A stretch of 64,000 nt of DNA from a bacterium (GTDB lineage: Bacteria > Hydrothermota > Tepidihabitantia > SM23-42 > JAOAFX01), in assembly GCA_036382775.1 (NCBI GenBank), contig DASVHD010000016.1:8323-72322 (forward strand), written 5' to 3'. The translations under genes were made by a program, and so were the position numbers. The notes beneath the pieces were generated by a model that was given only the letters and a program-made list of their open reading frames with translations, made no database searches and had not been told where the DNA came from. Shown here piece by piece: positions 60 through 27,709 of this stretch. Every line of letters starts with the position of its first letter. Within the stretch, counting starts at the first letter, position 1.

Positions 60-250
60 CATATCCTAATAAAGGATGAGATTGCTTCCCCTCTTTCCTC
101 GGGACTCCAGTTATCCCCCTCACCCTTACCCTCCCCCTCGAGGGGGGAGGAAAAAGGAGGGGGTGTAAGGTTGCGCACGATGATTGCTCGCAATGACCAC
201 AATAAGACGCTTTGCATCTAATCGGGCAGGCAAAGGGGAGAGGTGAAGAA
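60..250. repeat. composite hairpin-rich repeat cluster (units A', B, E)
   Basis: gagattgcttcccctc...ggactccagttatcccc, ccctcgaggggggaggaaaaaggagggggtg.aaggttgcgcac and gctcgcaatgacc...tgcatctaatcgggcaggca recur at 1255-1700 and 37190-37570. Confidence 0.7.
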
Positions 251-287
251 ACGTGAAACCAATGAGTTCATAATTAAAGTTTTACGC

Positions 288-315
288 TTGACATATACTT
301 ACCTATCGGTATAAT
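288..315 (+). promoter_or_regulatory. sigma70-like promoter TTGACA(288-293)-16 nt-TATAAT(310-315); the ATG at 321 lies 5 nt after the -10, so the transcript is probably leaderless
   Basis: Exact consensus hexamers read directly; no Shine-Dalgarno sequence between the -10 and the ATG. Confidence 0.55.
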
Positions 316-320
316 AGACC

Positions 321-530
321 ATGAAAGCAATGAATATTTTGAGAAAGATTGAGAAGAAATATATCGTGGATGATAAAGGAAGAAAATCCGCAATCATTGT
401 TCCAATCGAAAAATACGAGGAACTTCTTGAAGACATTCATGACCTTGCCATTGTCGCCGAGCGGCGCGATGAAGAGACGGTTAGTTTTTATGACCTTAAG
501 AAAAAATTGAAGAAAAATGGGCTCCTATGA
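321..530 (+). CDS. type II antitoxin (Phd/YefM- or RelB-like), 69 aa
   Basis: Small acidic protein immediately upstream of, and overlapping by 14 nt, a RelE/ParE toxin gene; AT-rich cassette. Confidence 0.6.
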   Translation: MKAMNILRKIEKKYIVDDKGRKSAIIVPIEKYEELLEDIHDLAIVAERRDEETVSFYDLKKKLKKNGLL

Positions 531-789
531 AATTCGATGGAAGAAATCGGCGATTAGCGATCTGCGGAGAATCGACAAGCAGTTTGTCAGCCGAATCATA
601 AGAGGAATTGAAGACTTAGTAACAAATCCTTACCCTGCTCACTCCAAAAAACTCAAGGCCACGGAGCATATTTATCGTTTGCGCATCGGTGATTACCGGG
701 TTGTTTATCATGTAGATGCAGGTGCAAGAACAATAACCATCTATCATATAAGACATCGCAAAGATGTTTACCGCTTCATGAAATTGTAA
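517..789 (+). CDS. RelE/ParE family toxin, 90 aa
   Basis: C-terminal ...YRLRIGDYRVVYHVDAGARTITIYHIRHRKDVYR matches the RelE/ParE signature; start overlaps the antitoxin. Confidence 0.75.
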   Translation: MGSYEIRWKKSAISDLRRIDKQFVSRIIRGIEDLVTNPYPAHSKKLKATEHIYRLRIGDYRVVYHVDAGARTITIYHIRHRKDVYRFMKL

Positions 790-1283
790 TGACAATAATA
801 CAAGGGAAAGCTAAGCTCAACCATCTAAATTCATATAGTCAAAAAAAAGTCGCAACATCCATGTATCAAAAAGGAAAGGATTTCATTCTCGCTGCCATGT
901 TATTAAATCAAAAGAACAGATTTAACTATGTCTACCGCCATTTGATTTGCCAAGAACTTGAAAATATTCTAAAATCATTACTTCTATTCAAAGATTTCAA
1001 ACGGTTCAAACCGCTCTTAAAACCAAGAAGAGAGTTGGGACATGATCTAGAAAAAATAGTACTATGTTGGTCAAAGGAACTTAATGGAAATCGTATTAAC
1101 GTTAAATTGCTTAATGAAATCAAAACACCGAACATATTTTATAAAAATCATCGTCTGAGATACGGGTCAATTGCCGATTTGCTCTTTGATCTTAGAAAAA
1201 GCAAAGTAAAGTCAACAATGAAATTTATTCATAAGATTATTATTAAAGTCAATAAGAAATTGAGATTGCTTCGTCCCGCTTAA
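789..1283 (+). CDS. hypothetical protein, possible HEPN-like (R-x4-H: RRELGHDLEKI) third gene of the TA operon
   Basis: Its ATG overlaps the toxin TAA stop (TAATG); AT-rich; the 3' end runs into a repeat element, so the true stop may be earlier. Confidence 0.35.
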   Translation: MTIIQGKAKLNHLNSYSQKKVATSMYQKGKDFILAAMLLNQKNRFNYVYRHLICQELENILKSLLLFKDFKRFKPLLKPRRELGHDLEKIVLCWSKELNGNRINVKLLNEIKTPNIFYKNHRLRYGSIADLLFDLRKSKVKSTMKFIHKIIIKVNKKLRLLRPA

Positions 1284-1700
1284 GCGGAACTCGCAATGAC
1301 AGAGAGAAAGATAAGATTGCTTTGCACGAGGCATGCTCGCAATGATCCCGATTAGATGCTCTGCATCTAACGGGGCAGGCAGAGGGAGGGATGTAAAAGC
1401 AGAAAACCAGCGACCTTCGGTATGTGAGACCGACGCTCTTTTGCGGACACCCTCAAACCCCATGAAATATCGGGAGTTTTCAGCGAACGCCGCCAGGTCA
1501 CCTTTGGATTCCCCATTTTACTTATTTCATAAGTCCCCTCTCCCACAGGGACACCAATTATTTTTGATGTTCAATTTTTTGATGTTCCTTTTAAAGGGAG
1601 AGGAATAAGGTATGGGTTTAATCCTTAGGTTGCCCCACAGGGACACCAGTATCTTTTATCCAAATTTGTTGAAGCCATCAAGGGAGGGGATTTGTTATAG
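1255..1700. repeat. composite repeat cluster (units A, E, C, D), downstream flank of the TA cassette
   Basis: gagattgcttcgtcccgcttaagcggaactcgcaatgacag (near-identical to 37276-37325); unit E again (1335-1390); cccacagggacacca x2; agggagaggaataaggt.gggttta. Confidence 0.7.
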
Positions 1701-1810: not shown

Positions 1811-2722
1811 ATGATGTTGTTTTTTTCAGCGTTGTTTATTTACGCGGATGAACCAGTGACCGCTAAGATCACGGCCCTCGAAGGTGATGTCCGCATTGTA
1901 AAAAGATCCGACGGCCAGGAGTCCATGGCTCAGCTCCTGGGCGTACTATTTGACGGCGACAGTTTGAAGACCGGGTCTGGATCAAAGGCCACGGTTCTTT
2001 ACGCTAACGGAAAGATCCTGGCGATAAACGATCAGGCGCAGATGGAAATAAAGGGCGCGGTACCGGATACGATCAGGGGCAAAGCGAATGACGGCGCCGG
2101 CGCGACCGCGGGTGACGCGTCAGTTCTGTTCGCGTTCGTCACGGAGAATGAGGCCGGGACGAGGAAACTGATGGTGAGGGGTCCGGAGGATTCTTTCGTT
2201 ATCTATAAACCCGGCAATACGGCGCTGATGGACAGCCGACCCGAATTGCTGTGGAGTTCTCGGCCGGACGCCCAGGCTTACGTGGCGGTTTTCCAGAAAA
2301 TGGGTGATATCGTCATGAGCGTGATCACGGTCGATACATTTCTGGCTTATCCCCAGACCATGAATGATCTTGACCCCGGTTCTTACATGCTAAAAGTAAG
2401 CGCGATCAAAGGAAACGACACGGTCGGGTCCGTAGCGCGGTTCGTGAAGATCTTGAAACCCGAGGATATCGAAGGCGTAAAGACTTTGCTTAAACAGATC
2501 GCCGCGCAGAAGTGTGATCCATTCACGCTTCATTTGCTAAAAGCCCAGGTCTATGAGAAAAAGGGATTGATCGCCGACGCGATCGAACAATATGAGATAT
2601 TGCTCTCGCAAAAGCCGGATGCCGCGGTGATCCACCAGGCATTGTGTACTTTGTACACAAAGCTTGGCGTACAGGCAGCGGCAAATAGTCATCTTGACCA
2701 GTACCGGGAACTCAAACAGTGA
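1811..2722 (+). CDS. FecR-like domain protein with C-terminal TPR-like helices
   Basis: ITALEGDVRIVKR...GDSLKTGSGSKATVLYANG resembles the FecR sensor domain; stop overlaps the CHAT gene start (TGATG). Confidence 0.45.
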   Translation: MMLFFSALFIYADEPVTAKITALEGDVRIVKRSDGQESMAQLLGVLFDGDSLKTGSGSKATVLYANGKILAINDQAQMEIKGAVPDTIRGKANDGAGATAGDASVLFAFVTENEAGTRKLMVRGPEDSFVIYKPGNTALMDSRPELLWSSRPDAQAYVAVFQKMGDIVMSVITVDTFLAYPQTMNDLDPGSYMLKVSAIKGNDTVGSVARFVKILKPEDIEGVKTLLKQIAAQKCDPFTLHLLKAQVYEKKGLIADAIEQYEILLSQKPDAAVIHQALCTLYTKLGVQAAANSHLDQYRELKQ

Positions 2723-5496
2723 TGCTGATCGCCGTCTTTATTTTCGCTGCCTCGTTAGACTTAAGAGTACAAAAGGCGGATTCATTATTCGACATCGAGA
2801 ATTACGCGTCAGCGGAAAGCATTTATACCGGCGTCCTGGCGACCGCCCAGGGCGCGGATAAGGCCGCCTGTTTGAAAGGCCTGGGTAACATCCGGTTCAG
2901 TTATGGCGCGTTCGATAAAGCTTACGTATATTACAACGATGCGTTATCGATATTCAAAAAGATCAAAGACCGGCGCGGGGAGGCCAGGATTGCCATCAAC
3001 CTGGGAAGCCTGTCCGTGTACCGCGGGACGCCCGATAAAGCCATTAAATACTACGACCGGGCGCTGGTCCTGGTGCAAAAGATCAAGGACCCTACCGATG
3101 ATGACCGAAAAGACGAGGCGGCTGTTTACCTGAACAGGGGCCAGGTCTATGAGGACGGACGGCAATACGACAGGGCACGCGGGCAATATCAGGAAGCGCT
3201 GGCGATTTCAGCGGCGATCGGTTATGAACGGGGGATGGCCGACAGTTATTACCACAGCGCGTCGCTTTTCCAAAATGCCGGCGAGGCGGACAGCGCTCTG
3301 TTGTACTTGGGTAAGGCGCAGCGGTCTTATCGACAGCTGAATAACGGCAAGGGCGCAGCCGATTGCCTGCGCGAAGCCGGGAACATCCACCGGAAACTTT
3401 CAGATTACACCGCCGCGCTCGACTGTTTCTTCCGGGCGTTAGACCTGGTGAAGGCGGCAAGAGGTAATGAAAAGAGCGTGCTGGGCGAAGCCGAACTGTG
3501 CATGTACATTGGCCGGTTATATCTTGAGATGGGCAAATACCACGATGCCTTGCAGAACTTCACGGCAGCACGGAAAATATTTGAAGGTTCATACGACCGC
3601 ATGGGCAAGGTCTCGGTATTCGAGAGTATCGCCCAGGCCCATTTGTTCACCGCGATGTACGATAGTGCTTTGTATTATTATGAACAGGCGCAGCAAACAG
3701 CAGTTTCAGATATTCAGAAAGCGAGCCTTGTCAATAATGCAGGCATTGTCTATGAAAAGGAGCATAATTACGATGCCGCCATGAAACAATTCCGGTCTGC
3801 CCTTGACATATATACTTTTTGGCACGACAGCGTTGGCATTGCCAAGGTGATGGGCAATATGGCCAACTGCGCACTGGCCAAAGGTGACTATAACAGTGCC
3901 ATAATCTGGTACCAGACAGCTTTGAGTACTGTAAAGAAACTAAAGCGCCAGGACTGGGAAGTCGGGCTATTCTCCAACCTGGGTCGCGCGCAGCAGGGTG
4001 CCGGCAGGACGAACGATGCGATCCAGTCAATGTGCTCAGCGGTTGACCGCATCGAGGCGCTGCGCGGTAATATAACAAGCCAGGAATTCAGGTCGACGTA
4101 TTTTGAGGATAAGATCAAAGTCTATGAGGAACTGGTCAGTCTGTATTGCGACCAGGGCGACGCGGTCAGCGCATTCAACACGGCCGAGAGAGCGAAAGCC
4201 CGGGCTTTCCTTGATCTGGTCGGCAGCGTGGATTTGAGCAAGCGGGATGACATTGATCCCGGGGTGCGCGTTTTGATCGAAAAGGAGCAGCGCCTGGCGC
4301 GGAAGGTGGAATATTTAACGGGCAGTCCCCAGCAGCCGGCCGCGATCGTGGAGCACGTCCGGGTGACTGACAGCCTGGCGCGGCTGTGGCCCGAATACGC
4401 GGCGCTGAGGTCGGCCCGGCCGGTCGATGTCGGCGGTCTGCAATCGGTCCTGGACAGCAGCACGGCGTTCGTGGAGTATTTTCTTGGCGTCCGCAAGGGA
4501 TTCGTATTCGTAGTGAGGAACAAGAAGATCAGCGTTTTGCCGCTGGGCAAGGATCCGGCCGTCATATATCAGGCCGTGGACTCTTTACGGCGCGAGGTCA
4601 GGCGCAAGGGTAACTATGCTCCCTACGGGCGAATGCTCTTTAACACCTTGCTTTCGCCGGTGTATTCTGACCTGGCGTCGGCCAAACGGGTGGGGATAGT
4701 CCCTCACGGCGTGCTTCATCACCTGCCCTTCTCATTGCTCGTTACGCGGGAAGATCCCCGCCGGCTTTTGATCGAGGACCACGATATTTTTTACGTACCC
4801 TCGGCCTCGGTCTTCGAGATCGCGCACCGGCGGAACACACGGCAGAAAGACCGCGCTGTGGTTTTTGCTAAATCGGATTTTGCCGAACACCCCGACTGGT
4901 TCGACGTGCCGTTGCCGGGCACGAATATCGAGAAAGACTCGCTTCTGGCGCACCGGGTTTTTCCCAAGGTCATAGTATTTTCAGACCGGGACAGCGTTCT
5001 TCCCCTGCCCACCGAAAGCAGTGCCAAGCGCCTGCTCGATTCGTTCGACATTATCCATTTTGCCACGCACGGCAAGCTTGACGAAGAATCACCGCTTGAT
5101 TCCCGCATCGTGCTGGGGGCGGATCCGGCCGAGGACGGCAACCTGAAAGTACGCGAGATCTTCAATCTGGCGGCGCACGCTTACCTGATTACACTTTCCG
5201 CCTGTGAAACCGGGCGGCTAAAAACCTTCGCCGAAACCGGAAAGTACGGCGCGGGCGATGAGCTGACCGGCTTGAGCCGGGCATTCATCTATGCTGGCGC
5301 CGCGTCCGTGGTCGCCTCGCTGTGGAAGGTGAGCGATGCCTCAACCGCCCTGCTCATGGTGGATTTCTATGAGCGTCTGAAGGATCATGACAAAGCTGGC
5401 GCGCTGTGCGCGGCTCAGCGCCGGCTGATGAAAAGCGAATATTATGCTGAACCGTTCTACTGGGCGCCGTTCGTGGTGATCGGGGACTGGAGATGA
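2722..5496 (+). CDS. TPR-repeat protein with C-terminal CHAT (caspase-like) protease domain
   Basis: Many TPR units; C-terminal HFATHG...LSACETG His/Cys dyad typical of CHAT. Confidence 0.8.
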   Translation: MLIAVFIFAASLDLRVQKADSLFDIENYASAESIYTGVLATAQGADKAACLKGLGNIRFSYGAFDKAYVYYNDALSIFKKIKDRRGEARIAINLGSLSVYRGTPDKAIKYYDRALVLVQKIKDPTDDDRKDEAAVYLNRGQVYEDGRQYDRARGQYQEALAISAAIGYERGMADSYYHSASLFQNAGEADSALLYLGKAQRSYRQLNNGKGAADCLREAGNIHRKLSDYTAALDCFFRALDLVKAARGNEKSVLGEAELCMYIGRLYLEMGKYHDALQNFTAARKIFEGSYDRMGKVSVFESIAQAHLFTAMYDSALYYYEQAQQTAVSDIQKASLVNNAGIVYEKEHNYDAAMKQFRSALDIYTFWHDSVGIAKVMGNMANCALAKGDYNSAIIWYQTALSTVKKLKRQDWEVGLFSNLGRAQQGAGRTNDAIQSMCSAVDRIEALRGNITSQEFRSTYFEDKIKVYEELVSLYCDQGDAVSAFNTAERAKARAFLDLVGSVDLSKRDDIDPGVRVLIEKEQRLARKVEYLTGSPQQPAAIVEHVRVTDSLARLWPEYAALRSARPVDVGGLQSVLDSSTAFVEYFLGVRKGFVFVVRNKKISVLPLGKDPAVIYQAVDSLRREVRRKGNYAPYGRMLFNTLLSPVYSDLASAKRVGIVPHGVLHHLPFSLLVTREDPRRLLIEDHDIFYVPSASVFEIAHRRNTRQKDRAVVFAKSDFAEHPDWFDVPLPGTNIEKDSLLAHRVFPKVIVFSDRDSVLPLPTESSAKRLLDSFDIIHFATHGKLDEESPLDSRIVLGADPAEDGNLKVREIFNLAAHAYLITLSACETGRLKTFAETGKYGAGDELTGLSRAFIYAGAASVVASLWKVSDASTALLMVDFYERLKDHDKAGALCAAQRRLMKSEYYAEPFYWAPFVVIGDWR

Positions 5497-11567: not shown

Positions 11568-14500
11568 ATGACCAGATGTCGCATTCCTTCGAAGAGATCG
11601 CGGAGATATTGGATGTTAATGATCGCGGCCTTGTGCATTATCCCCGTGCTTTCATTTGCCGGACCGGATGAACCTTATTTGATAACGGGTCGGGTTCTTG
11701 CGGTCTCGGAAGACGGGCGCCAGGTCGTGATAAACAAGGGCGCGAATGACCGTGTCCTGAAGGATTCTTTATGCGCTTTCCGGCCTAACCGGGGGTATGA
11801 TCAGGGTGATGTAGAATGGGATATCCTGCTGGCGAGCGGGGAGATCACCTTCATCGGACCGGATACGGCGGTGATCGAGCTTACCGACGTCCGCGACAGT
11901 GTCCTGGTCAATGATTGCTGCGAGCTATTTGTCCGGGTTCCGTCATTTGTCCTCGACAGCGATCTGGGAAAGATCGCGATATGGGATATTGCTTTCGTGG
12001 ATTACGACAATTCGCTCCCCTTTTTCACTCTGGGCGGTATCATCAGCGATCCCCATCCAACTTACACTGACAGCATTGTCAACCGGATGGCCGAAGAGAT
12101 AAGATCTCATCCTGATGCCGTTGATTACGGCGGCGACAAAGTTCAGGGCGGGATATTCAACGGCATGACCGTCCGGGAAGCCATGCTTAAAACGACCGCC
12201 GAGCATGTCAAGCTCTACCTTGAATACGTACGGTATTATCCGGGGCGTTATATAAATTTTGACTGGTATCTTACCAATACCTACCCGTGGTGGGTCTTTC
12301 TGGGCACCAAAACCGCCGAGCGTGACCGTAAATTGAAAGTCATCGGGCCCCTGCTCGACAGCGCCTATTACGCGACCCAGCGCAGTGATTTCCATGCGGC
12401 GATCGGCTACTACAAAAGGGTTCTCGGCCAGGTGCCGGACCATGCAGACGCGGTTAAATCCATGAAACTGCTCAACACGATACTCCAGGACCGCAAGATC
12501 GTCGAGAACGACCCGAGTGATGTCACCACCTGTTTCGCATTGGGCAAGGCTTATTATGACATAGACCTGTTTGACAGCGCGCTGGTCTATTTTCGCAGGG
12601 CACGCAACCTTGGTTATGACAGTCTTGATATCGATAGGAACGTCGGTTATGTGCTGGTTTCACAGCGCGCTTACAAAGACGCGCGAAAGATCTTTGAGAA
12701 GCTGAACAAAGTCATGCCCAGGGATGAGAACATCCTGAAATGGCTCAATTATTCGAACGCGCGCGAAAAACAGTCCAGATCGGCATCCACCCTGGAGTCG
12801 TACATCATGACCGGTGATATAAAGTATGCCGAGGACAATTATGATGACGCGATCTCCGAGTATAAGAAGGCACTGGCGATCCAGCCCCATTCAGACCGCG
12901 TCCAGGATCTGATCGAGAAGGCAGCAAAACGGCGGAAAGCGCAGGAGCGGCAGACCTGGGCTGCGGACTACTGGGAAAAGGGCAAATTTGAGGAGGCCAA
13001 GGGTTTCTGGCAGGAAGCATTCGGTCTGTGCGAGGAGATCGGCGATACCTCTGCCATGGAGACCGTCTTTGATGAAATGGCAGACGCGATGTACGATGGG
13101 ATGTTCTACGATGACGCGATCGGCGTCTACGAGCGCATACTGGAAATAAATTCTGGATCCTACGATTCCTATATCAGCCTCAGCAACTGCTACAAGGCCA
13201 AAAAGGACTATGAAACTGCTGTTTCCTGGGCGGAAAAAGGGATCACGGTAGATCCCCAGGACGCGTGGGCATATAATATCCTTGGTTTGATCTACAAACA
13301 GACAAAAAAGTACGACCAGGCGATCGAATATTTTCTCAAGGCCAGCGAAATGGACGAGGAATACAAATATCCCAATTACAACGCCGCGCTCGTATATGTT
13401 GCGGGACAGGAATATGAAAAGGCCCGTATCTACCTTCACAAGGCCCTCGAGATCGACATCGAATACTCCGATGCCCGATACGACCTCGTCGCCCTGGAAT
13501 GCCTGCTGGAAACATCACAAAAGGTTTCATCGGACCCGGATGATGCCGACACCCGTTTGAGGTACGGACGGGCGCTGTACAACCTGGAGGATTACAGCCG
13601 TGCGATCACGGAATTGAATACCGTGATCGCGAAAAGGGGAGATGATGCGGTGGCCTGGGCGTATCTGGGTTTTGCTTATAATGAATCCGGCCAGCTGGAT
13701 AAAGCACGGGACTGTTTTGAACGTTCGTATAAGCTTCATCCATATCCGAACATCAAGGCATGGATATTCCACAACGAAGGTACCAGCGCCCTGGAGAATG
13801 ATCCTTATGATCCGGCCGCCTACCTGAAACTGGCGGACAGCGATCTTTACTGGGAATATTTCGATGAGGCGCTGTCCGATTGCGAGCTGGCGCTGCAGAT
13901 GGGTGCCGATACGCAGGTAGTGTACGAGAAGTCAGCGATCGCCCGTACCGGTCTGCAGGGGAACGAGCTGTACAGCACGGCCAGCGATTACTATGACCGC
14001 GCCGAGTATGATAAAGCGATCGAGTACGCGGACAGTGCCTGCAAGGTCTACGAGAGCATCGGGGATATATTCGGCGAAATGTGGGCGCTATTGAAACTGG
14101 GCTGGTCGCATGCCAATCTTTTCGAACACGACAGGGCGCTGGAGTACTACGACCGTGCCGGAAAGGTCGCTGAGCTGATCTTCGACCGGGCTAACAAGGG
14201 CAATTACCTATCGGCGGTCGGCGATTATCACTGGAACATGGGTGATTACAATAAAGCGCTCGAGTACAAGAAAGAAGCGCGCGATATCTTCCACCGCAAC
14301 AATGATCTCACCAACGAGGCCAATGTCCTGATCAGCATAGGTTCGCTCACCGGCGGCGGCGGTGAGTTCGACCAGATGATCGAGTATTACACCAAGGCGC
14401 TCGATATCCACGTAAAGACAATGAATTACACAGGTGAGAGTTATGCCCTGGGCACCTTGGGTTGGGCGTACCAGGATGACGGCGATTTCGCCAATGCATT

Positions 14501-16595
14501 GGAATACCAGAAAAAAGCTCTCAAGATCGCGCAAAAATATAACGATAAATGGCGGGAGATGAGCGCCTACAGCGGTATCGGGAACATCTACGAGGACCTA
14601 GGTGACACTTTGAACGCGATCCGTTACCTCCATTATTACCTCGATGCCGCGACCGCGATCGGCAGCAGGACCGACCGCGCGAATGCCCTGAACACGATCG
14701 GCCTGGTCTATCTCGAGATCGTCAAGGATTACGAAAAGGCTTACGATTTCTTTGTCCGTTCCAGGGATCTGTCGAAGGCCACCGGTTATATCCTGGGCGA
14801 AGGGGTGGCGATCGCCAATATCGGCGTGACCTTTTCCCGGAGAAAGATGTACACTGAAGCCATGCCCTTTCACGAGCAGAGCCTCGAGATCGTCAGGAGT
14901 AAGAACGCATCCTATCAGGAAATGCAGGGGCTGAACGAGTACGGGGAGACCTACCTGGGGCTGAAGGACTATGACAAGGCTCTGGAGTGCTTCAAGCGGT
15001 CGATCGCCCTGGCGGACACGATCGGCGTAAGGCGGGAAAAATGGAAGTATGAGCTAAATGCCGGCATCGCCCACGAAGCAAGGGGTGACCTGGAAGCCGC
15101 GGTCGAGATGTACAAGGACGCGGCCGCGACCCTGACCAATATCAAGAACAAGATCAAGAGCGAGCAGTTGAAAAAGGGTTTTTCTGAACTGGACAAGCAG
15201 ATCGACGTGTATAAACGGCTGGTCGACATCCTGATACGAGCCGGCAAGCCGGACGAAGCCTTGAAATACATCGAAGAGAGTAAATCAAAGATCATCAAGG
15301 ATGCTTTTGGCGATATCAAACCCAAAGCTGAAGATTCCAACCTTCAAGAAACCCTTGCCAACGTCGACAAGATGGAAAAGCAGAAGGAGACGCTGGAACA
15401 AAAGTTGGTCGAGGAACGGCAAAAACCGGCGAATGAACAGGACCAGACCAAGATCCGGATCTTGAGCAGCACCCTGGCCACGACCGAAGGCGAGTTCAAT
15501 CAATGGATGCTGAAACTGAAATTCCAGAACCGGAAGATGTATGATGCACTGACTATCAATCCCACGACCCTGGGCGATGTCCAGAAGGATATACCGGCAA
15601 ACACGATCCTGCTCGAGTATTTTATATCGTCCGACAAGCTCTATATTTTCGGCATCGGTCGAGAACAGTTCATCGCCAAGTCGGTCGATGTCACGGAGCC
15701 GGACATCAACGCGACCGTTGATTTTTATCTAGGCCTGCTGCGCGATCCGCAGTCCGGTATGGACGAGGATCTGAAGGCCGCGTCCCACAAGCTGTACGGA
15801 TACTTGATCAAGCCGATCGAGCCGGAAGTCAGCGTTTTTGAAAATATCGTGGTCGTGCCCTACGGGATCCTGTACTATCTTCCATTCCACGCGCTGCGGC
15901 GGGACGATGATCAGTACGTCATTCAGTGGAAGCGGTTGTCATACACGACATCGGCGACGTTTGCCGATCTGCTGAAACAGGAACGAGGGGAAATGAATAG
16001 CCTGCTGGCGATCGGCAATCCCGATGGCAGTCTGCCGGGCGCTGCCGATGAAGTGAAAGAGGTCAAGGATGAGGTTTTCAAACAGGACGCGATCATCTGG
16101 ACGCTGTCCGAGGCGACGAAGAAAAAATTTCTGGAACAGGCAAAAAACTACAATATCGTGCACCTGGCGACGCACGGTTTTATCCAGAACAATCCTCTTG
16201 AATCATACCTGCTATTCGCCGGCGATAACTCGGAAGAACAGCGGCTGACCCTGCTGGAAGTTGCCGGTTACACTTCTTTAAGAGAAAGGACCGATCTGGT
16301 CTTTTTATCCGCCTGCCAAACGGCCATGGAAAAAGGCGCCACCAGCGGATCCGAGCTTATTTCCCTGGCCGAGGCGTTCGCGATGGCCGGACCGCCAACG
16401 CTTATCGCCACGCTCTGGCAGGTCAGCGATGTTTCAACCAGCCGGCTCGTGATATCGTTCTACACCAGGCTTAAAAGAAAAAAAGATGATAAATTAGGCG
16501 CGCTGCGGGACGCGCAGCTGGAGCTCCTGGCGACGCCGGAATATGCCCATCCATTTTACTGGGCGCCGTTCATCCTGATCGGAAACTGGAGATAA
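11568..16595 (+). CDS. giant TPR-repeat protein (1675 aa) with C-terminal CHAT domain
   Basis: RBS AAGGGGGAA; dozens of TPR units; C-terminal HLATHGF...LSACQTA. Confidence 0.8.
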   Translation: MTRCRIPSKRSRRYWMLMIAALCIIPVLSFAGPDEPYLITGRVLAVSEDGRQVVINKGANDRVLKDSLCAFRPNRGYDQGDVEWDILLASGEITFIGPDTAVIELTDVRDSVLVNDCCELFVRVPSFVLDSDLGKIAIWDIAFVDYDNSLPFFTLGGIISDPHPTYTDSIVNRMAEEIRSHPDAVDYGGDKVQGGIFNGMTVREAMLKTTAEHVKLYLEYVRYYPGRYINFDWYLTNTYPWWVFLGTKTAERDRKLKVIGPLLDSAYYATQRSDFHAAIGYYKRVLGQVPDHADAVKSMKLLNTILQDRKIVENDPSDVTTCFALGKAYYDIDLFDSALVYFRRARNLGYDSLDIDRNVGYVLVSQRAYKDARKIFEKLNKVMPRDENILKWLNYSNAREKQSRSASTLESYIMTGDIKYAEDNYDDAISEYKKALAIQPHSDRVQDLIEKAAKRRKAQERQTWAADYWEKGKFEEAKGFWQEAFGLCEEIGDTSAMETVFDEMADAMYDGMFYDDAIGVYERILEINSGSYDSYISLSNCYKAKKDYETAVSWAEKGITVDPQDAWAYNILGLIYKQTKKYDQAIEYFLKASEMDEEYKYPNYNAALVYVAGQEYEKARIYLHKALEIDIEYSDARYDLVALECLLETSQKVSSDPDDADTRLRYGRALYNLEDYSRAITELNTVIAKRGDDAVAWAYLGFAYNESGQLDKARDCFERSYKLHPYPNIKAWIFHNEGTSALENDPYDPAAYLKLADSDLYWEYFDEALSDCELALQMGADTQVVYEKSAIARTGLQGNELYSTASDYYDRAEYDKAIEYADSACKVYESIGDIFGEMWALLKLGWSHANLFEHDRALEYYDRAGKVAELIFDRANKGNYLSAVGDYHWNMGDYNKALEYKKEARDIFHRNNDLTNEANVLISIGSLTGGGGEFDQMIEYYTKALDIHVKTMNYTGESYALGTLGWAYQDDGDFANALEYQKKALKIAQKYNDKWREMSAYSGIGNIYEDLGDTLNAIRYLHYYLDAATAIGSRTDRANALNTIGLVYLEIVKDYEKAYDFFVRSRDLSKATGYILGEGVAIANIGVTFSRRKMYTEAMPFHEQSLEIVRSKNASYQEMQGLNEYGETYLGLKDYDKALECFKRSIALADTIGVRREKWKYELNAGIAHEARGDLEAAVEMYKDAAATLTNIKNKIKSEQLKKGFSELDKQIDVYKRLVDILIRAGKPDEALKYIEESKSKIIKDAFGDIKPKAEDSNLQETLANVDKMEKQKETLEQKLVEERQKPANEQDQTKIRILSSTLATTEGEFNQWMLKLKFQNRKMYDALTINPTTLGDVQKDIPANTILLEYFISSDKLYIFGIGREQFIAKSVDVTEPDINATVDFYLGLLRDPQSGMDEDLKAASHKLYGYLIKPIEPEVSVFENIVVVPYGILYYLPFHALRRDDDQYVIQWKRLSYTTSATFADLLKQERGEMNSLLAIGNPDGSLPGAADEVKEVKDEVFKQDAIIWTLSEATKKKFLEQAKNYNIVHLATHGFIQNNPLESYLLFAGDNSEEQRLTLLEVAGYTSLRERTDLVFLSACQTAMEKGATSGSELISLAEAFAMAGPPTLIATLWQVSDVSTSRLVISFYTRLKRKKDDKLGALRDAQLELLATPEYAHPFYWAPFILIGNWR

Positions 16596-20648: not shown

Positions 20649-21899
20649 TCATCTATCGAGCGACGTATCTTTATCTGAACCTTTGCCGCTGCTGAACTTT
20701 TTCAAATCTATGGCCATTCCAAGTATTTTCTGTTTTTCATTCTCGAAGAGTTGTTTATATTCTTTCTTAACTGAGGGTGCTCTGGGTATCTTTATGCTTA
20801 AAGGATTGACGGGCACATTGTTGATATGAAGCTCAAAATGGAGATGGGGACCGGTGCTTAGACCGGTATTCCCCGAATAGGCGATCAAATCACCCATTTT
20901 GACATATTTACCTACCTTTATGCCTGGGGCAATTTTTGAAAGATGACCATACCGCGTCAAATAATTATTCGGATGCTTAATCTCAACCAGGTTGCCGTAT
21001 CCCCCTTTCCAACCCGCATAGGTGATCTTTCCATCGCCGATCGAAGATACCGGAGTGCCGATCGGTGCAACATAATCAAGACCATGGTGAGGACGCCAGA
21101 TACGCAGGATCGGATGAAAACGGCGGTTAGAAAAATAGGAGCTTATCCGGCTGTAACGGAGCGGCGACTTAAGCAGCGATTTCCTTAAAGATTCGCCTTT
21201 CAAGCTGTAAAAATCATCATAACCTTCAGGATCGTCGAAATAGATGCCCGCGTAATCACCGACATAACCCTGATAGCGAACATAAAATATCTTCGGATAG
21301 CTTACCGAATTCGAATCGACAATTTCTTTCTCAACTAAGATTTCAAAGCTATCCCCATTCTGGGTCTCAGTGGAAAAATCTATCTCCCGGGCAAAAATGT
21401 CGGCAAAATTGTAAACCAGTTCTGGTGTTTCGCCCATCTTCAGCATCGTCTCGTAGAGCGAAGAATTGATCTTACCCCAAATAATAACCATGTGCCGTTC
21501 GATATAGGGGGAATGCATGTAGCAGATTAATCCCTGGGAATCTTTCTCGACAATATATTTTTCTTTCGGACTCATTGTATAGCAAAATTTTGAAAACTCA
21601 CCATTAATCCGCACGATATAGACCGAATCAGCGGGACGGCAGTACCGAAAGGGAAATTGGGATATTTTTAATTCATCGATAATTTGCAGGGCAAGTGAAC
21701 GATCAAGGCTCGTGCGGAAGAGAGCTGCCTGAAGGTGATCATTTCTCTTGATCTGTACAAACTCAGTCGTGACAACCGGCTGATGAATTTTTCCGGTGAC
21801 TTTATCTTCTTTTCTTCTGGAACAGCCTAAAATGAGAAGCGACAATAACAAAAGAAATTCAGCAAACCGAGTAAGAAGAAGGGGTCTCATCTTATGCAC
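20649..21899 (-). CDS. M23-family peptidase lipoprotein (copy 1)
   Basis: HHGLDY...GYGNLVEIKH...GHLS...GNTGLSTGPHLHFELH LytM/M23 motifs; lipobox LILGC. Confidence 0.75.
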   Translation of the reverse strand: MHKMRPLLLTRFAEFLLLLSLLILGCSRRKEDKVTGKIHQPVVTTEFVQIKRNDHLQAALFRTSLDRSLALQIIDELKISQFPFRYCRPADSVYIVRINGEFSKFCYTMSPKEKYIVEKDSQGLICYMHSPYIERHMVIIWGKINSSLYETMLKMGETPELVYNFADIFAREIDFSTETQNGDSFEILVEKEIVDSNSVSYPKIFYVRYQGYVGDYAGIYFDDPEGYDDFYSLKGESLRKSLLKSPLRYSRISSYFSNRRFHPILRIWRPHHGLDYVAPIGTPVSSIGDGKITYAGWKGGYGNLVEIKHPNNYLTRYGHLSKIAPGIKVGKYVKMGDLIAYSGNTGLSTGPHLHFELHINNVPVNPLSIKIPRAPSVKKEYKQLFENEKQKILGMAIDLKKFSSGKGSDKDTSLDR

Positions 21900-22135
21900 T
21901 TCCTATCATCAGCACAGGGTGGTTTTCCGCACCGCTCATTTTTGCCGCAGCAGGTCTTGTCTTTATTTAAGCCACCTGCCTTTGTGCTCAGCGGGACGTG
22001 GCTCTTTGAAAATATCCGGTTCAATTCCTTGCTGCCACAATATTGGCATTTAATCTCTGCATCGCCTTGTTCCATGCCGACTAGGAATTCGTTAATCGCA
22101 GCATAGAGTGCGCACCGGTATTCATAAATCGGCAT
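21887..22135 (-). CDS. FmdB-family zinc-ribbon protein (copy 1)
   Basis: MPIYEY-R-C... CQYCGSKEL; paralog of 26978-27226; its stop overlaps the next gene's start by 13 nt. Confidence 0.6.
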   Translation of the reverse strand: MPIYEYRCALYAAINEFLVGMEQGDAEIKCQYCGSKELNRIFSKSHVPLSTKAGGLNKDKTCCGKNERCGKPPCADDRKCIR

Positions 22136-22237
22136 CTGAATTCCCTTTATTTAACCCTTATATTGTATCTCACTAAACAATAATCTCCTCTTTTAGCACG
22201 ATCTACCATAACATCAAACAAATTTTCAATTACTGGT

Positions 22238-23407
22238 TCAGATCTTTTCAAGAGCCTGCTGTAAATCAAATATAATATCTTGGACATTTTCAATGCCAAC
22301 TGACAAGCGCACAAAACCCGGACTGATTCCGCATTTCTGTAAATCGTTTTCAGAATAGTTCGAATGGGTCATTGAGGCAGGATGCTCGATCAAAGTATCG
22401 ACATCTCCGAGACTCACCGCGAGGATGCACAATTTGACTGAATTCATGAGAACCTTCCCCGCTTCTTTCCCGCCCTTCATATCAAAACCAATCATGCCGC
22501 CGAAATCACTCATCTGTTTCCTGGCGGTCCCGTGTCCGGGATGATCTGGCAAACCAGGGTAATATACTTTTTCAACCCTGGGCTGGCTTGTGAGAAACTG
22601 AACAATTCTTTTTGCGTTTTCGCAATGACGGGTCATCCGCACGGCGAGTGTTTTCAATCCTCTTAAAATCAGCCAGGCATTGAAAGGCGATGCCGTTGCA
22701 CCCATTTCTTTAGCAGTCTCGGCCTGCATTCTCGCGATAAAATCCCCCTTGCCGACAACCATGCCGCCGACAATATCACCGTGCCCGCTCAAATACTTGG
22801 TTGCCGAATGGACCACGATGTCGGCCCCAAGTTCTATTGGTCGCTGGAGATATGGGGTCGCAAAAGTATTGTCCACACATACCGGGATATTACGGCTTCG
22901 GGCGATTTCAGAGCACCGTGCAATATCGATAATTTTGAGCGTAGGATTGACCGGCGTCTCAATAAATATCATTCGGGTGTTCGGTTTTATTGCTTTGTTT
23001 AATTCATCAATTTTCGTCGCATCAACAATAGTAACCTGAATGCCCAGGCGGGGCAGGATTGTGTTGAATAAAGCAAATGTGCCGCCGTAAATTGTATTGT
23101 CCGAGATGATGTAATCATTGCAGCCCGCGCAAGTTATGATCGTGGCTAAGATTGCGGCAAGACCAGAAGAGAATACCAAACCGGACTCGGCTGACTCCAA
23201 CCGCGCAATTTTGCCTGCCAGAATGTCAATCGTGGGGTTGCTGATCCTTGTATAGATATATCCTTCTTCTTCATTTTTAAACAAACGCGCCCCGTGATCG
23301 GCATCGCGGAAGGCAAAAGTTGATGTCTGATAGATGGGCGGCGAGATCGCACCGGTTGATTTATCCGGGTGCTGACCACCATGAACGATATCGGTCTCAA
23401 TACGCAT
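22238..23407 (-). CDS. Cys/Met-metabolism PLP-dependent enzyme, methionine gamma-lyase-like (copy 1)
   Basis: Start chosen at MRIETDIVHGG by alignment with paralog 33853-35022; ...SATKYLSGHGD... PLP-Lys region. Confidence 0.75.
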   Translation of the reverse strand: MRIETDIVHGGQHPDKSTGAISPPIYQTSTFAFRDADHGARLFKNEEEGYIYTRISNPTIDILAGKIARLESAESGLVFSSGLAAILATIITCAGCNDYIISDNTIYGGTFALFNTILPRLGIQVTIVDATKIDELNKAIKPNTRMIFIETPVNPTLKIIDIARCSEIARSRNIPVCVDNTFATPYLQRPIELGADIVVHSATKYLSGHGDIVGGMVVGKGDFIARMQAETAKEMGATASPFNAWLILRGLKTLAVRMTRHCENAKRIVQFLTSQPRVEKVYYPGLPDHPGHGTARKQMSDFGGMIGFDMKGGKEAGKVLMNSVKLCILAVSLGDVDTLIEHPASMTHSNYSENDLQKCGISPGFVRLSVGIENVQDIIFDLQQALEKI

Positions 23408-23556
23408 TATCGCCTCGGGTTCGGCAAAGATGGGAAGAAAAAGGCTTCCCCTGATCAGATGCAATGGCAAGCTTGTTTAGGACATATCCTTTGTCTTCCC
23501 CCATCTCTGATGGTTTTTTGTAATCCTGCCGGTAAACTTCGTCTTCTTTATATTCT

Positions 23557-23832
23557 TTATACATCCTTTTTCTCCAGTTCTTCCATGCGTTTTTGCAATT
23601 CTTGCTTCTCTTTGGTCAAAGCCTCGAGTTCCGCCTTCAAATCCTCGGCCGTGGGTTCCGGCGGAATTATTCCGTGGTGCAGACTGCGTCCATGGACAAG
23701 TCTGCCGTTTCGGTCTTGATAGAATGCATGCGGGCCAGTGCTACAGCGACATGGCCCGACATATGTATATCCCGATGGGATGATCGTTTCTGGCCACCGA
23801 CATCTGTTCCAGCTTCTTCCATATCCATACAT
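23557..23832 (-). CDS. DUF5320-like protein (Gly/Arg/Cys-rich N-terminus plus coiled coil)
   Basis: GPCRCSTGPHAFYQD followed by EDLKAELEALTKEKQELQKRMEELEK; from memory this family co-occurs with DUF134/NifX-like/Mrp genes. Confidence 0.45.
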   Translation of the reverse strand: MYGYGRSWNRCRWPETIIPSGYTYVGPCRCSTGPHAFYQDRNGRLVHGRSLHHGIIPPEPTAEDLKAELEALTKEKQELQKRMEELEKKDV

Positions 23833-23833
23833 T

Positions 23834-24034
23834 TCAGACTCCTTTCTTTTTTTCTTCTATTAACTGATGATGGTAAGAGCATTCTCGGACCATCTTTGAC
23901 CCGCACTGGGGACATTTTTCTTCTCGGCATGGCACCCCTGCTTCATGCGATTGCTTAAAGCCACGTTTCGGACAGACACAAAATCCATTAGGCACTGTTA
24001 CCACGGGACCCCCTAATATTGTTTTTTCTTTCAA
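23834..24034 (-). CDS. small CxCPxCG...CPxCG zinc-ribbon protein (TTG start); paralog of the C-terminal extension of 27710-28183
   Basis: FCVCPKRGF...[31 protein letters not shown] versus FCLCPKCGE...[31 protein letters not shown]. Confidence 0.5.
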   Translation of the reverse strand: MKEKTILGGPVVTVPNGFCVCPKRGFKQSHEAGVPCREEKCPQCGSKMVRECSYHHQLIEEKKKGV

Positions 24035-24334
24035 TAAACTTGCTCTCTGCTCTTGCGAGAAGTTCGCCGTTTGATGACAATTCTGCTTTCAACTTATATA
24101 AAGAATAGCCGGCAGATATAACCCAAGCTTTAATGAACAAAGATGAATCACAGGGCACCGGTTTTATGAATCGGACAACAAGTTCTGCGGTTCGGGCTTC
24201 AACATTACGGCTGAACAGGCAATATGTCATCGCGCAATCTAATAAAGAGCTGATGATTCCTCCATGCATTAGTCCTTTATACCCTTGCAGATTACGGTTC
24301 CCTTAAAAAATCGTGGTGACGTTTCCTGTTTCAT
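23988..24334 (-). pseudogene. hotdog-fold (PaaI-like) thioesterase, apparently frameshifted or N-terminally truncated
   Basis: ...GLMHGGIISSLLDCAM... core; an in-frame stop 12 codons upstream; a short ORF MKQETSPRFFKGTVICKGIKD sits in another frame overlapping the start. Confidence 0.3.
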
Positions 24335-24473
24335 CCAAATTGAATTTCAAGTGAAATGATAATTCATTGTTGGATCCACACATAATGCATTCTTTATGCG
24401 AATCGGGAATCGAAACCGGGCCGCGTTTTTCATTGCTCATAGGTGTCCCCCCATAGGCTTCCCGCTATACGAA

Positions 24474-25016: not shown

Positions 25017-25051
25017 GATTACGCTCCGTTTTCATATCTATCATACACTTC

Positions 25052-26137: not shown

Positions 26138-26138
26138 A

Positions 26139-26990: not shown

Positions 26991-27226
26991 TTCCCATCAC
27001 CAGAACAGGGCGGCTTTTCGCAGCGATCATCCCGACCGCAACAAGTCTTACCTTGTTGTGATCCGATCGCACGTCCGCCCACGGCAACATTACTTTTAGA
27101 AAGTATCCTATTCAATTCTTTACTGCCACAATACTGGCATTTAATTGCTATGTCACCCTGTCCTATGCCAATAAGAAATTCGTTTATCGCATTACAGTGT
27201 TTGCATTGGTATTCATAAATAGGCAT
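26978..27226 (-). CDS. FmdB-family zinc-ribbon protein (copy 2)
   Basis: MPIYEYQCKHCNAINEF...CQYCGSKEL; 13-nt overlap with the next gene, as in copy 1. Confidence 0.6.
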   Translation of the reverse strand: MPIYEYQCKHCNAINEFLIGIGQGDIAIKCQYCGSKELNRILSKSNVAVGGRAIGSQQGKTCCGRDDRCEKPPCSGDGKCRR

Positions 27227-27315
27227 ATGGACTTTGCGTTATCGCGCTGGTCTCATATATATCTCCTTGGCTCAAGCCTTCATTAGATGAACAATTAATA
27301 GGGGACCAAGGGACC

Positions 27316-27705: not shown

Positions 27706-27709
27706 AAAT

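What the first reader, a model, noticed from the sequence alone, without database searches (positions are those of the whole stretch)
288..1283. Three-gene toxin-antitoxin operon with HEPN-like third gene and a leaderless consensus promoter
A classical antitoxin/RelE-ParE pair is followed, with a TAATG stop-start overlap, by a 164-aa alpha-helical protein. It carries RRELGHDLEKI (Rx4H, the HEPN RNase signature) and has no other obvious homology.
- HEPN domains normally pair with MNT antitoxins. A HEPN-like gene riding on a RelE module would be an unusual tripartite arrangement, possibly a second toxin or an Abi-like effector.
- The operon is driven by TTGACA-16-TATAAT with the ATG 5 nt after the -10, implying a leaderless antitoxin mRNA.
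- The ORF's 3' end extends into repeat unit A, so the annotated stop may be created by the insertion context.
Basis: partly seen in the sequence, partly recalled or inferred. Interest (0 to 1): 0.5.

Follow-up and report, generated by a model that had tools for sequence, protein, structure and literature searches.

The report
relBE toxin-antitoxin operon carrying HEPN gene
A small mobile toxin-antitoxin operon (relB-relE) carries a third gene that is a real but divergent HEPN-fold (probable RNase) protein, and comparison with relatives indicates an optional passenger rather than an obligatory third part of the system.

Summary
TTGACA-16-TATAAT (288-315) lies 5 nt before the ATG of a RelB-like antitoxin (321-530). 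This overlaps a RelE/ParE toxin (517-789), which overlaps by TAATG a 164-aa helical ORF (789-1283) whose last ~11 codons lie in a repeat unit.

What is conserved is G-H85-[DN]-L after a basic loop, E58x3K62, and H121xLR124Yx4D130. This is the 'alternative histidine' layout of AF0298-type HEPN-T and AbiV.

The HEPN gene is not a fixed partner of relBE:
- 17 other family members have no RelBE, no MNT and no recurrent neighbour.
- A 91%-identical relBE exists without it (L030).
- In a 94%-identical three-gene copy (L032) it is broken by a stop codon and a transposase insertion, while relBE stays intact.

Most likely it is an optional RNase cargo gene, co-transcribed with a self-sufficient, leaderless relBE cassette. 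Interest is modest.

The parts
288..315 (+). Sigma-70 consensus promoter: TTGACA (288-293), 16-nt spacer, TATAAT (310-315).
   Evidence: It is a 12/12 match. It is one of six such sites in the window against 0.04 expected. It is conserved in L030, L032 and L033.
321..530 (+). relB-like (Phd/YefM-RelB type) antitoxin gene, 69 aa. The ATG lies 5 nt after the -10, so the mRNA is probably leaderless.
   Evidence: PF18506 gives 4.5e-8 and PF02604 gives 4.5e-5. phrog_2268 is an antitoxin family. A close variant, P0203, has Thr at residue 4, so the second ATG is not conserved and the first ATG is favoured. dN/dS is 0.07-0.16 against relatives.
517..789 (+). RelE/ParE-fold toxin gene, 90 aa. It overlaps relB by 14 nt.
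   Evidence: PF05016 gives 1.7e-15. TIGR02385 RelE_StbE is above its cutoff. phrog_1213 RelE-like gives 4e-21. dN/dS is 0.12-0.33.
789..1283 (+). HEPN-fold gene, 164 aa. Its start overlaps the relE stop (TAATG). Its GC content is 31%.
1026..1049 (+). Codons 80-87 (RRELGHDL). This is the basic loop plus the nearly invariant G84-H85-[DN]86-L87, in the insert between core helices 2 and 3. It is the probable catalytic histidine.
   Evidence: H85 is present in 133 of 135 and G84 in 117 of 135. R80 and R81 are gaps in 112 and 118 of 135 relatives. The position comes from the secondary structure of the model read against PMC3710099.
1149..1178 (+). Codons 121-130 (HRLRYGSIAD). This is the family motif H-x-L-R-Y-x4-D at the end of core helix 3, the canonical place of the HEPN Rx4-6H motif, with D in place of H.
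   Evidence: R124 is present in 129 of 135, Y125 in 126, H121 in 104 and D130 in 102. The model has a helix at 105-119 followed by a loop.
1251..1322 (+). Hairpin repeat 'unit A' plus the start of the next unit. It supplies the last ~11 codons and the stop of the HEPN ORF.
   Evidence: It is 92% identical to window 37268-37339. The pattern GATTGCTT..CTCGCAATGA occurs at 1264-1299 and 1315-1345.
1396..1480 (+). 3' end of the shared unit. It includes a terminator-like hairpin followed by a T-run at 1417-1443.
   Evidence: It is 90.6% identical to L032 5716-5800, downstream of the transposase insertion.
175..258 (+). Left copy of an ~85-nt imperfect direct repeat. The right copy lies at 1324 to about 1408. 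Together they bracket the cassette.
   Evidence: The copies are 81% identical over 63 nt. The extension beyond 63 nt was read by eye.

Best explanation
Window ~267-1480 is one small, low-GC, horizontally moving transcription unit.

**The relBE part.** A perfect sigma-70 promoter starts an mRNA at or next to the relB AUG, so the mRNA is leaderless. relB (antitoxin) and relE (ribosome-dependent mRNA interferase type toxin) form a complete, self-sufficient type II toxin-antitoxin module.

**The third gene.** It is translationally coupled to relE through TAATG. It encodes a genuine HEPN-fold protein from an uncharacterised family that normally stands alone. The family is close to HEPN-T (PF05168, AF0298-like) and AbiV.

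**Probable activity (inferred).** I infer that it is a dimeric, metal-independent RNase or RNA binder.

**How it got there and what follows (inferred).** The gene was captured exactly at the 3' end of relE. It is therefore expressed from the RelB/RelE-autoregulated promoter and would rise together with RelE whenever RelB is degraded. It is optional cargo that gains expression and stabilisation from the addiction module. It is not an obligatory third component.

**Shown:** gene identities, the fold, motif conservation, lack of a conserved partner, existence of relBE alone, and decay of the HEPN gene in a sister copy.

**Inferred:** RNase activity, co-transcription, the leaderless start, and the direction of the gain.
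For: - **relBE identity.**
- **Conserved residues.** E58 is invariant. K62, H85, R124 and Y125 are each kept in at least 93% of 135 relatives.
- **Mapping onto HEPN.** The helices of the model match the description in PMC3710099. The acidic Ex3[KR] motif lies in helix 2. The alternative histidine comes from the insert between helices 2 and 3. The canonical motif lies at the end of helix 3.
- **Precedent for activity.** AbiV has its catalytic R91 and H97 in the same insert. Its nearest structures are 2hsb, 1ufb and 3o10, as here.
- **No fixed partner.** 17 other family members in very different bacteria have no MNT, no RelBE and no recurrent neighbour. They also have no recurrent tandem-repeat RNA.
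- **relBE alone.** L030 matches window 267-782 at 90.7% and stops 7 nt before the relE stop. A hycI gene on the other strand follows.
- **Decay in a sister copy.** L032 and L033 match window 280-1163 at 94.5%, but the HEPN gene has TAA at codon 19 in both. In L032 (L033 ends before this point) a ~1-kb insert encoding a Y1 transposase follows codon 125. relB and relE remain intact.
- **Different origins.** GC is 0.31 for the HEPN gene, 0.37-0.42 for relBE and 0.52-0.56 for neighbouring genes.
- **The core was a real gene.** dN/dS of the HEPN core against L032 is 0.23.
Against: - The TAATG overlap and the absence of any promoter-like site between relE and the HEPN start show tight coupling. That would also fit a functional three-part system.
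- The three-gene order is kept in two genomic contexts (window; L032/L033), so it moved or persisted as a unit.
- No residue-level structural superposition was possible, so the active-site mapping rests on secondary structure and a published description.
- The window protein deviates from the family at three well-conserved positions: R50 for L, E56 for G and P114 for L. It could be partly degenerate.
- Foldseek found no statistically significant match; the best E-value was 1.5.
- No sequence-level link to any PDB entry was found.
Confidence: 0.6

Rival explanations
1. It is a true tripartite or dual-toxin system. The HEPN protein is a second toxin held in check by RelB or by the RelBE complex, or it is an accessory factor that modulates RelE, as the chaperone does in TAC systems.
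For: - The stop and start overlap as TAATG, and the only promoter is the one upstream.
- The three-gene order is kept at 94% identity in a second genomic context.
- Purifying selection acted on the HEPN core, with dN/dS 0.23.
- Three-gene TA operons are known, namely relBEF and paaR2-paaA2-parE2.
Against: - relBE occurs alone at 91% identity.
- The HEPN gene is broken in L032/L033 while relBE stays intact.
- 17 other family members have no RelBE and no other recurrent partner. The protein therefore does not need an antitoxin in general.
Confidence: 0.12
2. It is an abortive-infection-like module. relBE acts as the trigger, because phage-induced shut-off depletes labile RelB. The HEPN RNase is a co-induced effector, so RelE and the HEPN protein together shut down translation.
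For: - The protein is HEPN-T/AbiV-like.
- Relatives lie beside type I R-M, HNH nuclease, integrase, resolvase, Tn3 and other TA genes.
- HEPN-T genes cluster with R-M systems according to PMC3710099.
- The promoter is shared with an autoregulated TA module.
Against: - There is no PADLOC hit for any of the three proteins.
- There are no homologues in phage or plasmid collections.
- Several relatives sit among housekeeping genes such as RACo, bshC and ABC permeases.
- There are no experimental data.
Confidence: 0.15
3. The HEPN gene is a catalytically dead or decaying passenger. It would be a nucleotide- or RNA-binding helical protein, or a pseudogene in the making, with no role in the cassette.
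For: - The canonical Rx4-6H is absent at the canonical site, where D130 stands in place of H.
- The window copy has non-consensus residues at three conserved positions, including P114 inside a helix.
- The C-terminal tail is supplied by a repeat.
- The sister copy is already disrupted.
- PMC3710099 notes that some HEPN domains lacking the motif may act non-catalytically.
Against: - All family-wide polar residues (E58, K62, H85, H121, R124, Y125, D130) are intact in the window copy.
- The ORF is full length.
- dN/dS is 0.23.
- AbiV, with the same motif placement, is an active RNase.
Confidence: 0.13

Closest known systems
E. coli relBEF operon (relB-relE-relF/hokD)
   Same: A relBE type II module is co-transcribed with a third, downstream, unrelated toxin-like gene from the autoregulated relB promoter (PMC3598666).
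   Different: The third gene there is a Hok-family membrane peptide, not a HEPN protein. The E. coli relB mRNA is not known to me to be leaderless (own knowledge). The overlap here is TAATG.
HEPN-T family (Pfam PF05168; AF0298/2hsb, TT1696/1ufb, ST0689/1wol) as classified by Anantharaman et al. 2013
   Same: - It shares the four-helix HEPN core with an insert between helices 2 and 3.
- It has Ex3K in helix 2.
- D replaces H in the canonical motif after a conserved R.
- A second conserved H sits in the insert.
- Stand-alone genes occur, some beside R-M systems.
   Different: - The window protein does not match PF05168 at E<=1.
- Only 16% of relatives match it, mostly below or near the cutoff.
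- The family has its own motifs (GH[DN]L; HxLRYx4D) and an N-terminal extension.
- No MNT partner or fusion was seen.
AbiV (Lactococcus abortive-infection HEPN RNase, type III TA-like)
   Same: - The nearest structural neighbours are the same (2hsb, 1ufb, 3o10, LinB 3jyy).
- The catalytic R/H motif lies in the loop after core helix 2.
- R and H spacing is not strictly conserved across the family.
- The N-terminal helix is needed for the active conformation (bioRxiv 10.1101/2024.05.05.592566).
   Different: - There is no sequence match to AbiV models in PADLOC or Pfam.
- No RNA antitoxin-like repeats lie next to family members.
- Here the gene sits behind relBE.
HepT/MntA (HEPN-MNT, type VII TA; 5yep, 7ae2, 8xdj)
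   Different: - There is no adjacent MNT nucleotidyltransferase in the window or in 17 related loci.
- There is no canonical Rx4H followed by an acceptor Tyr.
- It belongs to a different HEPN clade (DUF86).
paaR2-paaA2-parE2 of E. coli O157:H7
   Same: It is a three-gene operon containing a ParE/RelE-superfamily toxin, and its first gene is translated from a leaderless mRNA (PMC8630535).
   Different: The extra gene there is an upstream regulator that is part of the control circuit. Here the extra gene is downstream and optional.

Membership tests
Type II RelBE/ParDE toxin-antitoxin module | Small antitoxin gene with a recognised antitoxin domain, directly upstream of the toxin. | tested here: met
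   PF18506 RelB-like scores 33.2 bits against a cutoff of 27. PF02604 gives 4.5e-5.
Type II RelBE/ParDE toxin-antitoxin module | Toxin of the RelE/ParE fold. | tested here: met
   PF05016 scores 57.8 bits against a cutoff of 23. TIGR02385 scores 28.7 against 27.9.
Type II RelBE/ParDE toxin-antitoxin module | Overlapping or adjacent genes behind one promoter. | tested here: met
   The genes overlap by 14 nt, and a 12/12 promoter lies at 288-315.
Type II RelBE/ParDE toxin-antitoxin module | Toxin inhibits growth and the antitoxin neutralises it and represses the promoter. | not testable with these tools
   This needs expression experiments.
HEPN superfamily | Four-helix up-and-down core with an insert between helices 2 and 3. 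| tested here: met
HEPN superfamily | Rx4-6H motif at the end of core helix 3. | tested here: not met
At that site the family has R124-x5-D130. Such variation is documented for HEPN-T and AbiV.
HEPN superfamily | Conserved acidic residue in helix 2, typically Ex3[KR]. | tested here: met
   E58 is present in 135 of 135 and K62 in 134 of 135.
HEPN superfamily | Metal-independent RNase activity. | not testable with these tools
   This needs biochemistry.
HEPN-T, Pfam PF05168 | Score above the Pfam gathering threshold. | tested here: not met
   The window protein has no hit at E<=1. P0002 scores 21.1 bits against a cutoff of 22. 17 of 107 relatives match at E<=0.01. It is related to this Pfam family but is not a member as the family is currently defined.
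HEPN-T, AF0298-like subtype | H of the canonical motif is lost, the R is kept, and a second conserved H sits in the helix 2-3 insert. | tested here: met
   R124 is present in 129 of 135, D130 in 102 and H85 in 133. The placement comes from the model's secondary structure read against PMC3710099. It was not checked by 3-D superposition.
HEPN-MNT (type VII) toxin-antitoxin | Adjacent or fused minimal nucleotidyltransferase. | tested here: not met
   None was found in the cassette, nor next to 17 other family members.
Tripartite toxin-antitoxin systems (TAC, paaR2-paaA2-parE2, HipBST) | The third gene is linked to the TA pair across homologues and is required for control. | tested here: not met
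   Linkage is seen only in the window lineage and in L032/L033. relBE occurs alone in L030. The HEPN gene is disrupted in L032. Whether it is required for control cannot be tested here.
AbiV abortive-infection system | Match to AbiV models and an adjacent RNA antitoxin. | tested here: not met
   There is no PADLOC or Pfam AbiV hit. No recurrent repeats lie beside family genes.

The most novel reading that the evidence does not exclude
The cassette may be a TA-gated two-RNase defence or stress module. Loss of labile RelB, for example on phage-induced shut-off, would de-repress the leaderless operon. That would release RelE, which cuts mRNA on the ribosome. It would also raise the level of a stand-alone HEPN RNase that uses a non-canonical active site (H85 in the helix 2-3 insert plus R124). 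The wider family, with at least 244 clusters and no Pfam model, would then be a new class of partner-less HEPN effectors. These would borrow the regulation of whatever operon they land behind.
Probability: 0.15. Interest if true: 0.6.

Novelty: new variant of a known kind. Interest (0 to 1): 0.33.

Why it matters
The finding matters in three modest ways.

- **A defined, unstudied HEPN family.** It gives a concrete, testable example of a HEPN protein family that current domain libraries miss. The family has at least 244 clusters in Proteobacteria, Nitrospira, Gemmatimonadota, Dehalococcoidales and other groups. Its conserved residues are now defined: E58, K62, G84-H85, H121, R124, Y125 and D130.
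- **How TA operons pick up extra genes.** The junction sits exactly at the relE stop. The same relBE exists with the HEPN gene intact, with it broken, and without it.
- **A caution on motif spotting.** The 'Rx4H' that drew attention is an accident of a two-residue insertion. The real conserved histidine is the same residue, but in a different motif context.

If the protein proved to be an RNase co-induced with RelE, the cassette would be a simple model for TA-controlled effector expression. Otherwise it is an ordinary TA cassette with a passenger gene.

Tried and rejected
- **Family libraries.** Pfam, NCBIfam, PADLOC and PHROGs gave no hit for the 164-aa protein itself.
- **PDB sequence searches.** Searches with the protein, with P0002 and with the family profile found no HEPN entry. 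They returned only chance hits to designed repeat proteins and caspase-4.
- **Foldseek against PDB.** Nothing was significant (best E 1.5), although the top hit is a HEPN homologue. The afdb50 library was unavailable.
- **Related loci.** A 5-sequence alignment worked.
- **Repeat profile search.** A second profile search at E<=10, meant to fetch PF05168-labelled bridging sequences for a profile-profile alignment, returned the same 62 proteins. Residue-level mapping to PF05168 was therefore not obtained.
- **Mobile elements.** There are no homologues in the plasmid or phage collections.
- **RNA genes.** No Rfam family or tRNA lies in 1-2000, so the shared 3' segment 1396-1480 is not a known RNA or a tRNA attachment site.
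- **Type III antitoxin idea.** An RNA antitoxin of tandem repeats beside family genes was rejected, because no recurrent arrays were found.
- **Integron cassette idea.** This was considered because of the flanking repeats and the TA content. It was not pursued. No integrase or attC-like consensus was seen, and the repeats look like REP-type hairpins found elsewhere in the window.
- **Operator search.** A palindromic operator around the promoter was sought by eye. Only a 5-nt TATAC/GTATA pair turned up, and it is not kept in L032.
Full report
**1. What is in the sequence**

- TTGACA (288-293), a 16-nt spacer and TATAAT (310-315) are followed after AGACC by ATG at 321.
- The ORF 321-530 (69 aa) matches the RelB-like antitoxin family PF18506 above its cutoff, and Phd/YefM more weakly.
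- The ORF 517-789 (90 aa) matches ParE_toxin PF05016 (1.7e-15) and TIGR02385 RelE/StbE.
- The two genes overlap by 14 nt.
- The relE stop shares TAATG with the start of a 164-aa ORF (789-1283) that contains RRELGHDLEKI at residues 80-90.

The promoter is not a chance match. The window holds six perfect TTGACA-N16-TATAAT sites against 0.04 expected. So this organism uses exactly this consensus, and only the relB copy abuts its start codon.

The promoter, its spacing and the 5-nt distance to the ATG are kept in three related loci that are 91-94% identical. A close RelB variant has Thr at residue 4, so the second in-frame ATG is not conserved. Either way there is no room for a Shine-Dalgarno leader, so a leaderless relB mRNA is a sound inference.

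Leaderless TA transcripts are already known. TA transcripts are predominantly leaderless in M. tuberculosis (PMC8485053). The first gene of paaR2-paaA2-parE2 is leaderless (PMC8630535).

**2. The third protein is a HEPN-fold protein**

It matches nothing in Pfam, NCBIfam, PADLOC, PHROGs or PDB sequences on its own.

An exhaustive HMMER scan of 1.84 billion cluster representatives finds 244 relatives at E<=1e-3 and 122 at E<=1e-10. Nearly all are 140-190 aa single-domain proteins.
- Of 107 aligned relatives, 17 match Pfam HEPN (PF05168), best 1.9e-6, and no other family is matched.
- The closest relative outside this lineage, P0002 (46% identical), matches PF05168 over profile positions 2-112 of 117, at 21.1 bits against a cutoff of 22.

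With the family alignment, AlphaFold2 gives a confident model (pLDDT 92.3, pTM 0.86) with helices 15-41, 46-68, 70-73, 87-98, 105-119, 129-132 and 141-159.

- HEPN toxin 7ae2 (8.9), AF0298 2hsb (8.9), Csm6, 8xdj, AbiA and SO_3166 5yep.

Foldseek finds nothing significant, but its best hit is also a HEPN homologue, 1wol.

**3. The 'Rx4H' is not the conserved motif, but the histidine is conserved**

In 135 aligned relatives, R80 and R81 of the window protein fall in columns that are gaps in 112 and 118 sequences. They are an insertion special to this protein.

The motif counts among the relatives are as follows:

| Motif ending at H85 | Relatives |
|---|---|
| Strict R-x(4-6)-H | 38 of 133 |
| [KR]-x3-H | 88 of 133 |
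| [KR]-x(4-6)-H | 99 of 133 |

The segment before the histidine is simply a Lys/Arg-rich loop.

The following residues are conserved:
- G84-H85-[DN]86-L87, with H in 133 of 135;
- E58 (135 of 135) and K62 (134 of 135), which form an Ex3K motif;
- H121-x-L123-R124-Y125-x4-D130, with R in 129, Y in 126 and D in 102 of 135.

Anantharaman et al. (PMC3710099) place these features in the HEPN fold:
- the canonical Rx4-6H lies at the end of core helix 3;
- the acidic Ex3[KR] lies in helix 2;
- in HEPN-T (PF05168, AF0298-like) and AbiV, 'D replaces conserved H', while 'a second strongly conserved H' comes from the insert between helices 2 and 3.

Read against the model, E58/K62 lie in helix 2 (46-68). 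H85 caps the extra helix of the insert (87-98). R124...D130 follow helix 3 (105-119). So this family has the AF0298/AbiV-type layout.

For AbiV, the motif in that same insert (91-RNHKSKH-97) has been shown to be needed for RNase activity. R and H are reported not to be strictly conserved in spacing across that family. AbiV's nearest structures are 2hsb, 1ufb and 3o10, as here.

The mapping rests on secondary structure and published description. I could not superpose coordinates.

**4. Is it a three-part system? The comparative evidence says no**

*(a) No fixed partner.* I examined 17 other family members.
- Nine came from metagenome and genome contigs with precomputed Pfam annotations.
- Eight came from GTDB species genomes, including Nitrosomonas, Bradyrhizobium, Arenimonas, Nitrospira, Gemmatimonadota and Dehalococcoidales.
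- None has an MNT, none has RelBE in front, and all-against-all BLAST of the neighbours finds no recurrent partner.
- The only echoes are a ParE gene 1.2 kb downstream in L010, with an esterase gene in between, and shared synteny behind a RACo gene in two related alphaproteobacteria.
- No recurrent tandem repeats that could be a type III RNA antitoxin flank these genes.
- Contexts are mixed. Some are clearly mobile or defensive: type I R-M plus HNH in L001, integrase and Y2 transposase in L010, resolvase in L012, Tn3 in L018, BrnT modules in L011, HNH in L027. Others are housekeeping.

*(b) relBE exists alone.* On a 248-kb contig (L030), a relBE pair 90.7% identical to window 267-782 sits between a NUDIX gene and hycI. 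Homology stops 7 nt before the relE stop, and no HEPN gene follows.

*(c) The HEPN gene is decaying in a sister copy.*
- L032 and L033 come from the same two metagenomes as L030 and L031. They match window 280-1163 at 94.5%.
- Both have TAA at HEPN codon 19.
- In L032 the gene is cut after codon 125, right after R124-Y125, by about 1 kb encoding a 267-aa Y1 (IS200-like) transposase with an HTH.
- Downstream, L032 again matches window 1307-1345 and 1396-1480.
- relB and relE are intact there.
- Re-initiation at M25 would remove the first ten residues of helix 1. In AbiV an N-terminal truncation is inactive.

*(d) Composition.* GC is 0.31 for the HEPN gene, 0.37 and 0.42 for relB and relE, 0.52-0.56 for the neighbouring genes and 0.50 for the window.

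*(e) The HEPN core was nevertheless under purifying selection.* Between the window and L032, dN/dS is 0.23, against 0.16 for relB and 0.33 for relE. It was a working gene until recently in that lineage. In the window it keeps every family-wide polar residue, although R50, E56 and P114 depart from the consensus L, G and L.

**5. Most likely explanation**

The unit ~267-1480 is a mobile, compositionally foreign cassette. It runs from the promoter to a terminator-like hairpin at 1417-1443. It lies between a cooS-like gene (seen in L009, which is 100% identical and extends 717 nt upstream) and a TPR/CHAT operon. It is bracketed by REP-like hairpin repeats.

Its core is a self-sufficient, leaderless relBE module. 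A normally solitary HEPN gene has been joined to it exactly at the relE stop and is translationally coupled. It therefore inherits RelB/RelE-autoregulated expression and the stabilising effect of the addiction module.

The same family is found appended to the 3' ends of other unrelated operons. It overlaps the stop of a RACo gene in L013 and L025, and it lies 20 nt after bshC in L017. This fits a gene that borrows upstream transcription.

I infer that the protein is a dimeric, metal-independent RNase or RNA binder using H85, R124 and E58. I give this whole reading 0.6.

The rivals are a true dual-toxin or tripartite system (0.12), a TA-gated Abi-like effector (0.15, partly overlapping with the main reading), and a dead or decaying passenger (0.13).

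**6. Comparison with what is known**

- **relBEF.** The closest operon analogue is E. coli relBEF, where relBE is co-transcribed with the unrelated hok-like toxin gene relF (PMC3598666).
- **HEPN-T and AbiV.** The closest protein relatives are HEPN-T/AF0298-type proteins and AbiV. The window protein fails the PF05168 threshold and has no AbiV model match. It is a relative of those families, not a member as they are currently defined.
- **HepT/MntA.** It is not a HEPN-MNT (type VII) system, because no MNT is present anywhere.
- **Prior reports.** My literature searches found no report of a RelBE-HEPN operon. That search covers open-access text only.

**7. Verdict**

The motif that prompted it is accidental in its R, though not in its H. 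The 'tripartite' idea is not borne out by comparison. This is a new variant of known things: a relBE operon with an extra gene, and an undescribed subfamily of stand-alone HEPN-T-like proteins. Interest is modest at 0.33.

NCBI annotates the three genes in this MAG as hypothetical protein, RelE/ParE family toxin and hypothetical protein (HEX7319256-58). JGI calls the third gene 24 codons too short.

Noticed in passing
window 288, 1720 (+); 28241, 31311, 37029, 46886 (-): There are six perfect TTGACA-N16-TATAAT promoters in 64 kb, all with exactly 16-nt spacers, against 0.04 expected by chance. The organism appears to use the full E. coli-type consensus for a set of strong promoters. One sits 14 nt before a Fur-family gene (36484-36987, -).
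   Followed up: partly
window 72-262, 1251-1410, 1542-1657, 37268-37541, 37780-37830: Modular REP-like hairpin repeats (GATTGCTT..CTCGCAATGA units and CCCTCACCC..GGGTG units) flank the cassette and recur contiguously near 37.3 kb. An ~85-nt imperfect direct repeat (175 to about 258, and 1324 to about 1408) brackets the relBE-HEPN cassette. This might mark how it was inserted or could be excised.
   Followed up: partly
L032 4648-5658: A ~1-kb element encoding a 267-aa Y1 (IS200-like, PF01797) transposase with a C-terminal HTH has replaced the 3' third of the HEPN gene. The 58 nt at its left edge resemble window 37619-37676, next to the 37.3-kb repeat cluster. It is possibly a REP-associated (RAYT-like) transposase.
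   Followed up: partly
window 2719-5496 and 11568-16595: Two large TPR-CHAT domain proteins (925 and 1675 aa) lie downstream of the cassette, and their 3' ends are 80% identical over 55 nt. The 303-aa TPR protein at 1811-2722 precedes the first one, behind its own perfect promoter.
   Followed up: no
window 21886-28183 and 34517-34816: Several diverged duplicated segments (71-82% identity, 62-300 nt) suggest paralogous genes or a duplicated gene cluster (families D1-D3 and D11).
   Followed up: no
L001 1-3990; L016 608-877; L027 800-1768: Members of the HEPN family sit next to a complete type I R-M system plus an HNH_2 gene (L001), and next to other HNH nuclease genes (L016, L027). This is a weak hint of a defence-island habitat.
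   Followed up: partly
L013 1947-4474; L025 1938-4456; L017 1661-3555: In two alphaproteobacterial MAGs the HEPN gene overlaps the stop codon of a RACo corrinoid-activase gene. In L017 it follows bshC by 20 nt. The family repeatedly sits at the 3' end of unrelated operons.
   Followed up: partly
window 1212-1463 (-) and 1333-1608 (+): ORFs of 83 and 91 aa lie entirely within repeat DNA. JGI calls the former a gene in L009. They are most likely spurious.
   Followed up: no
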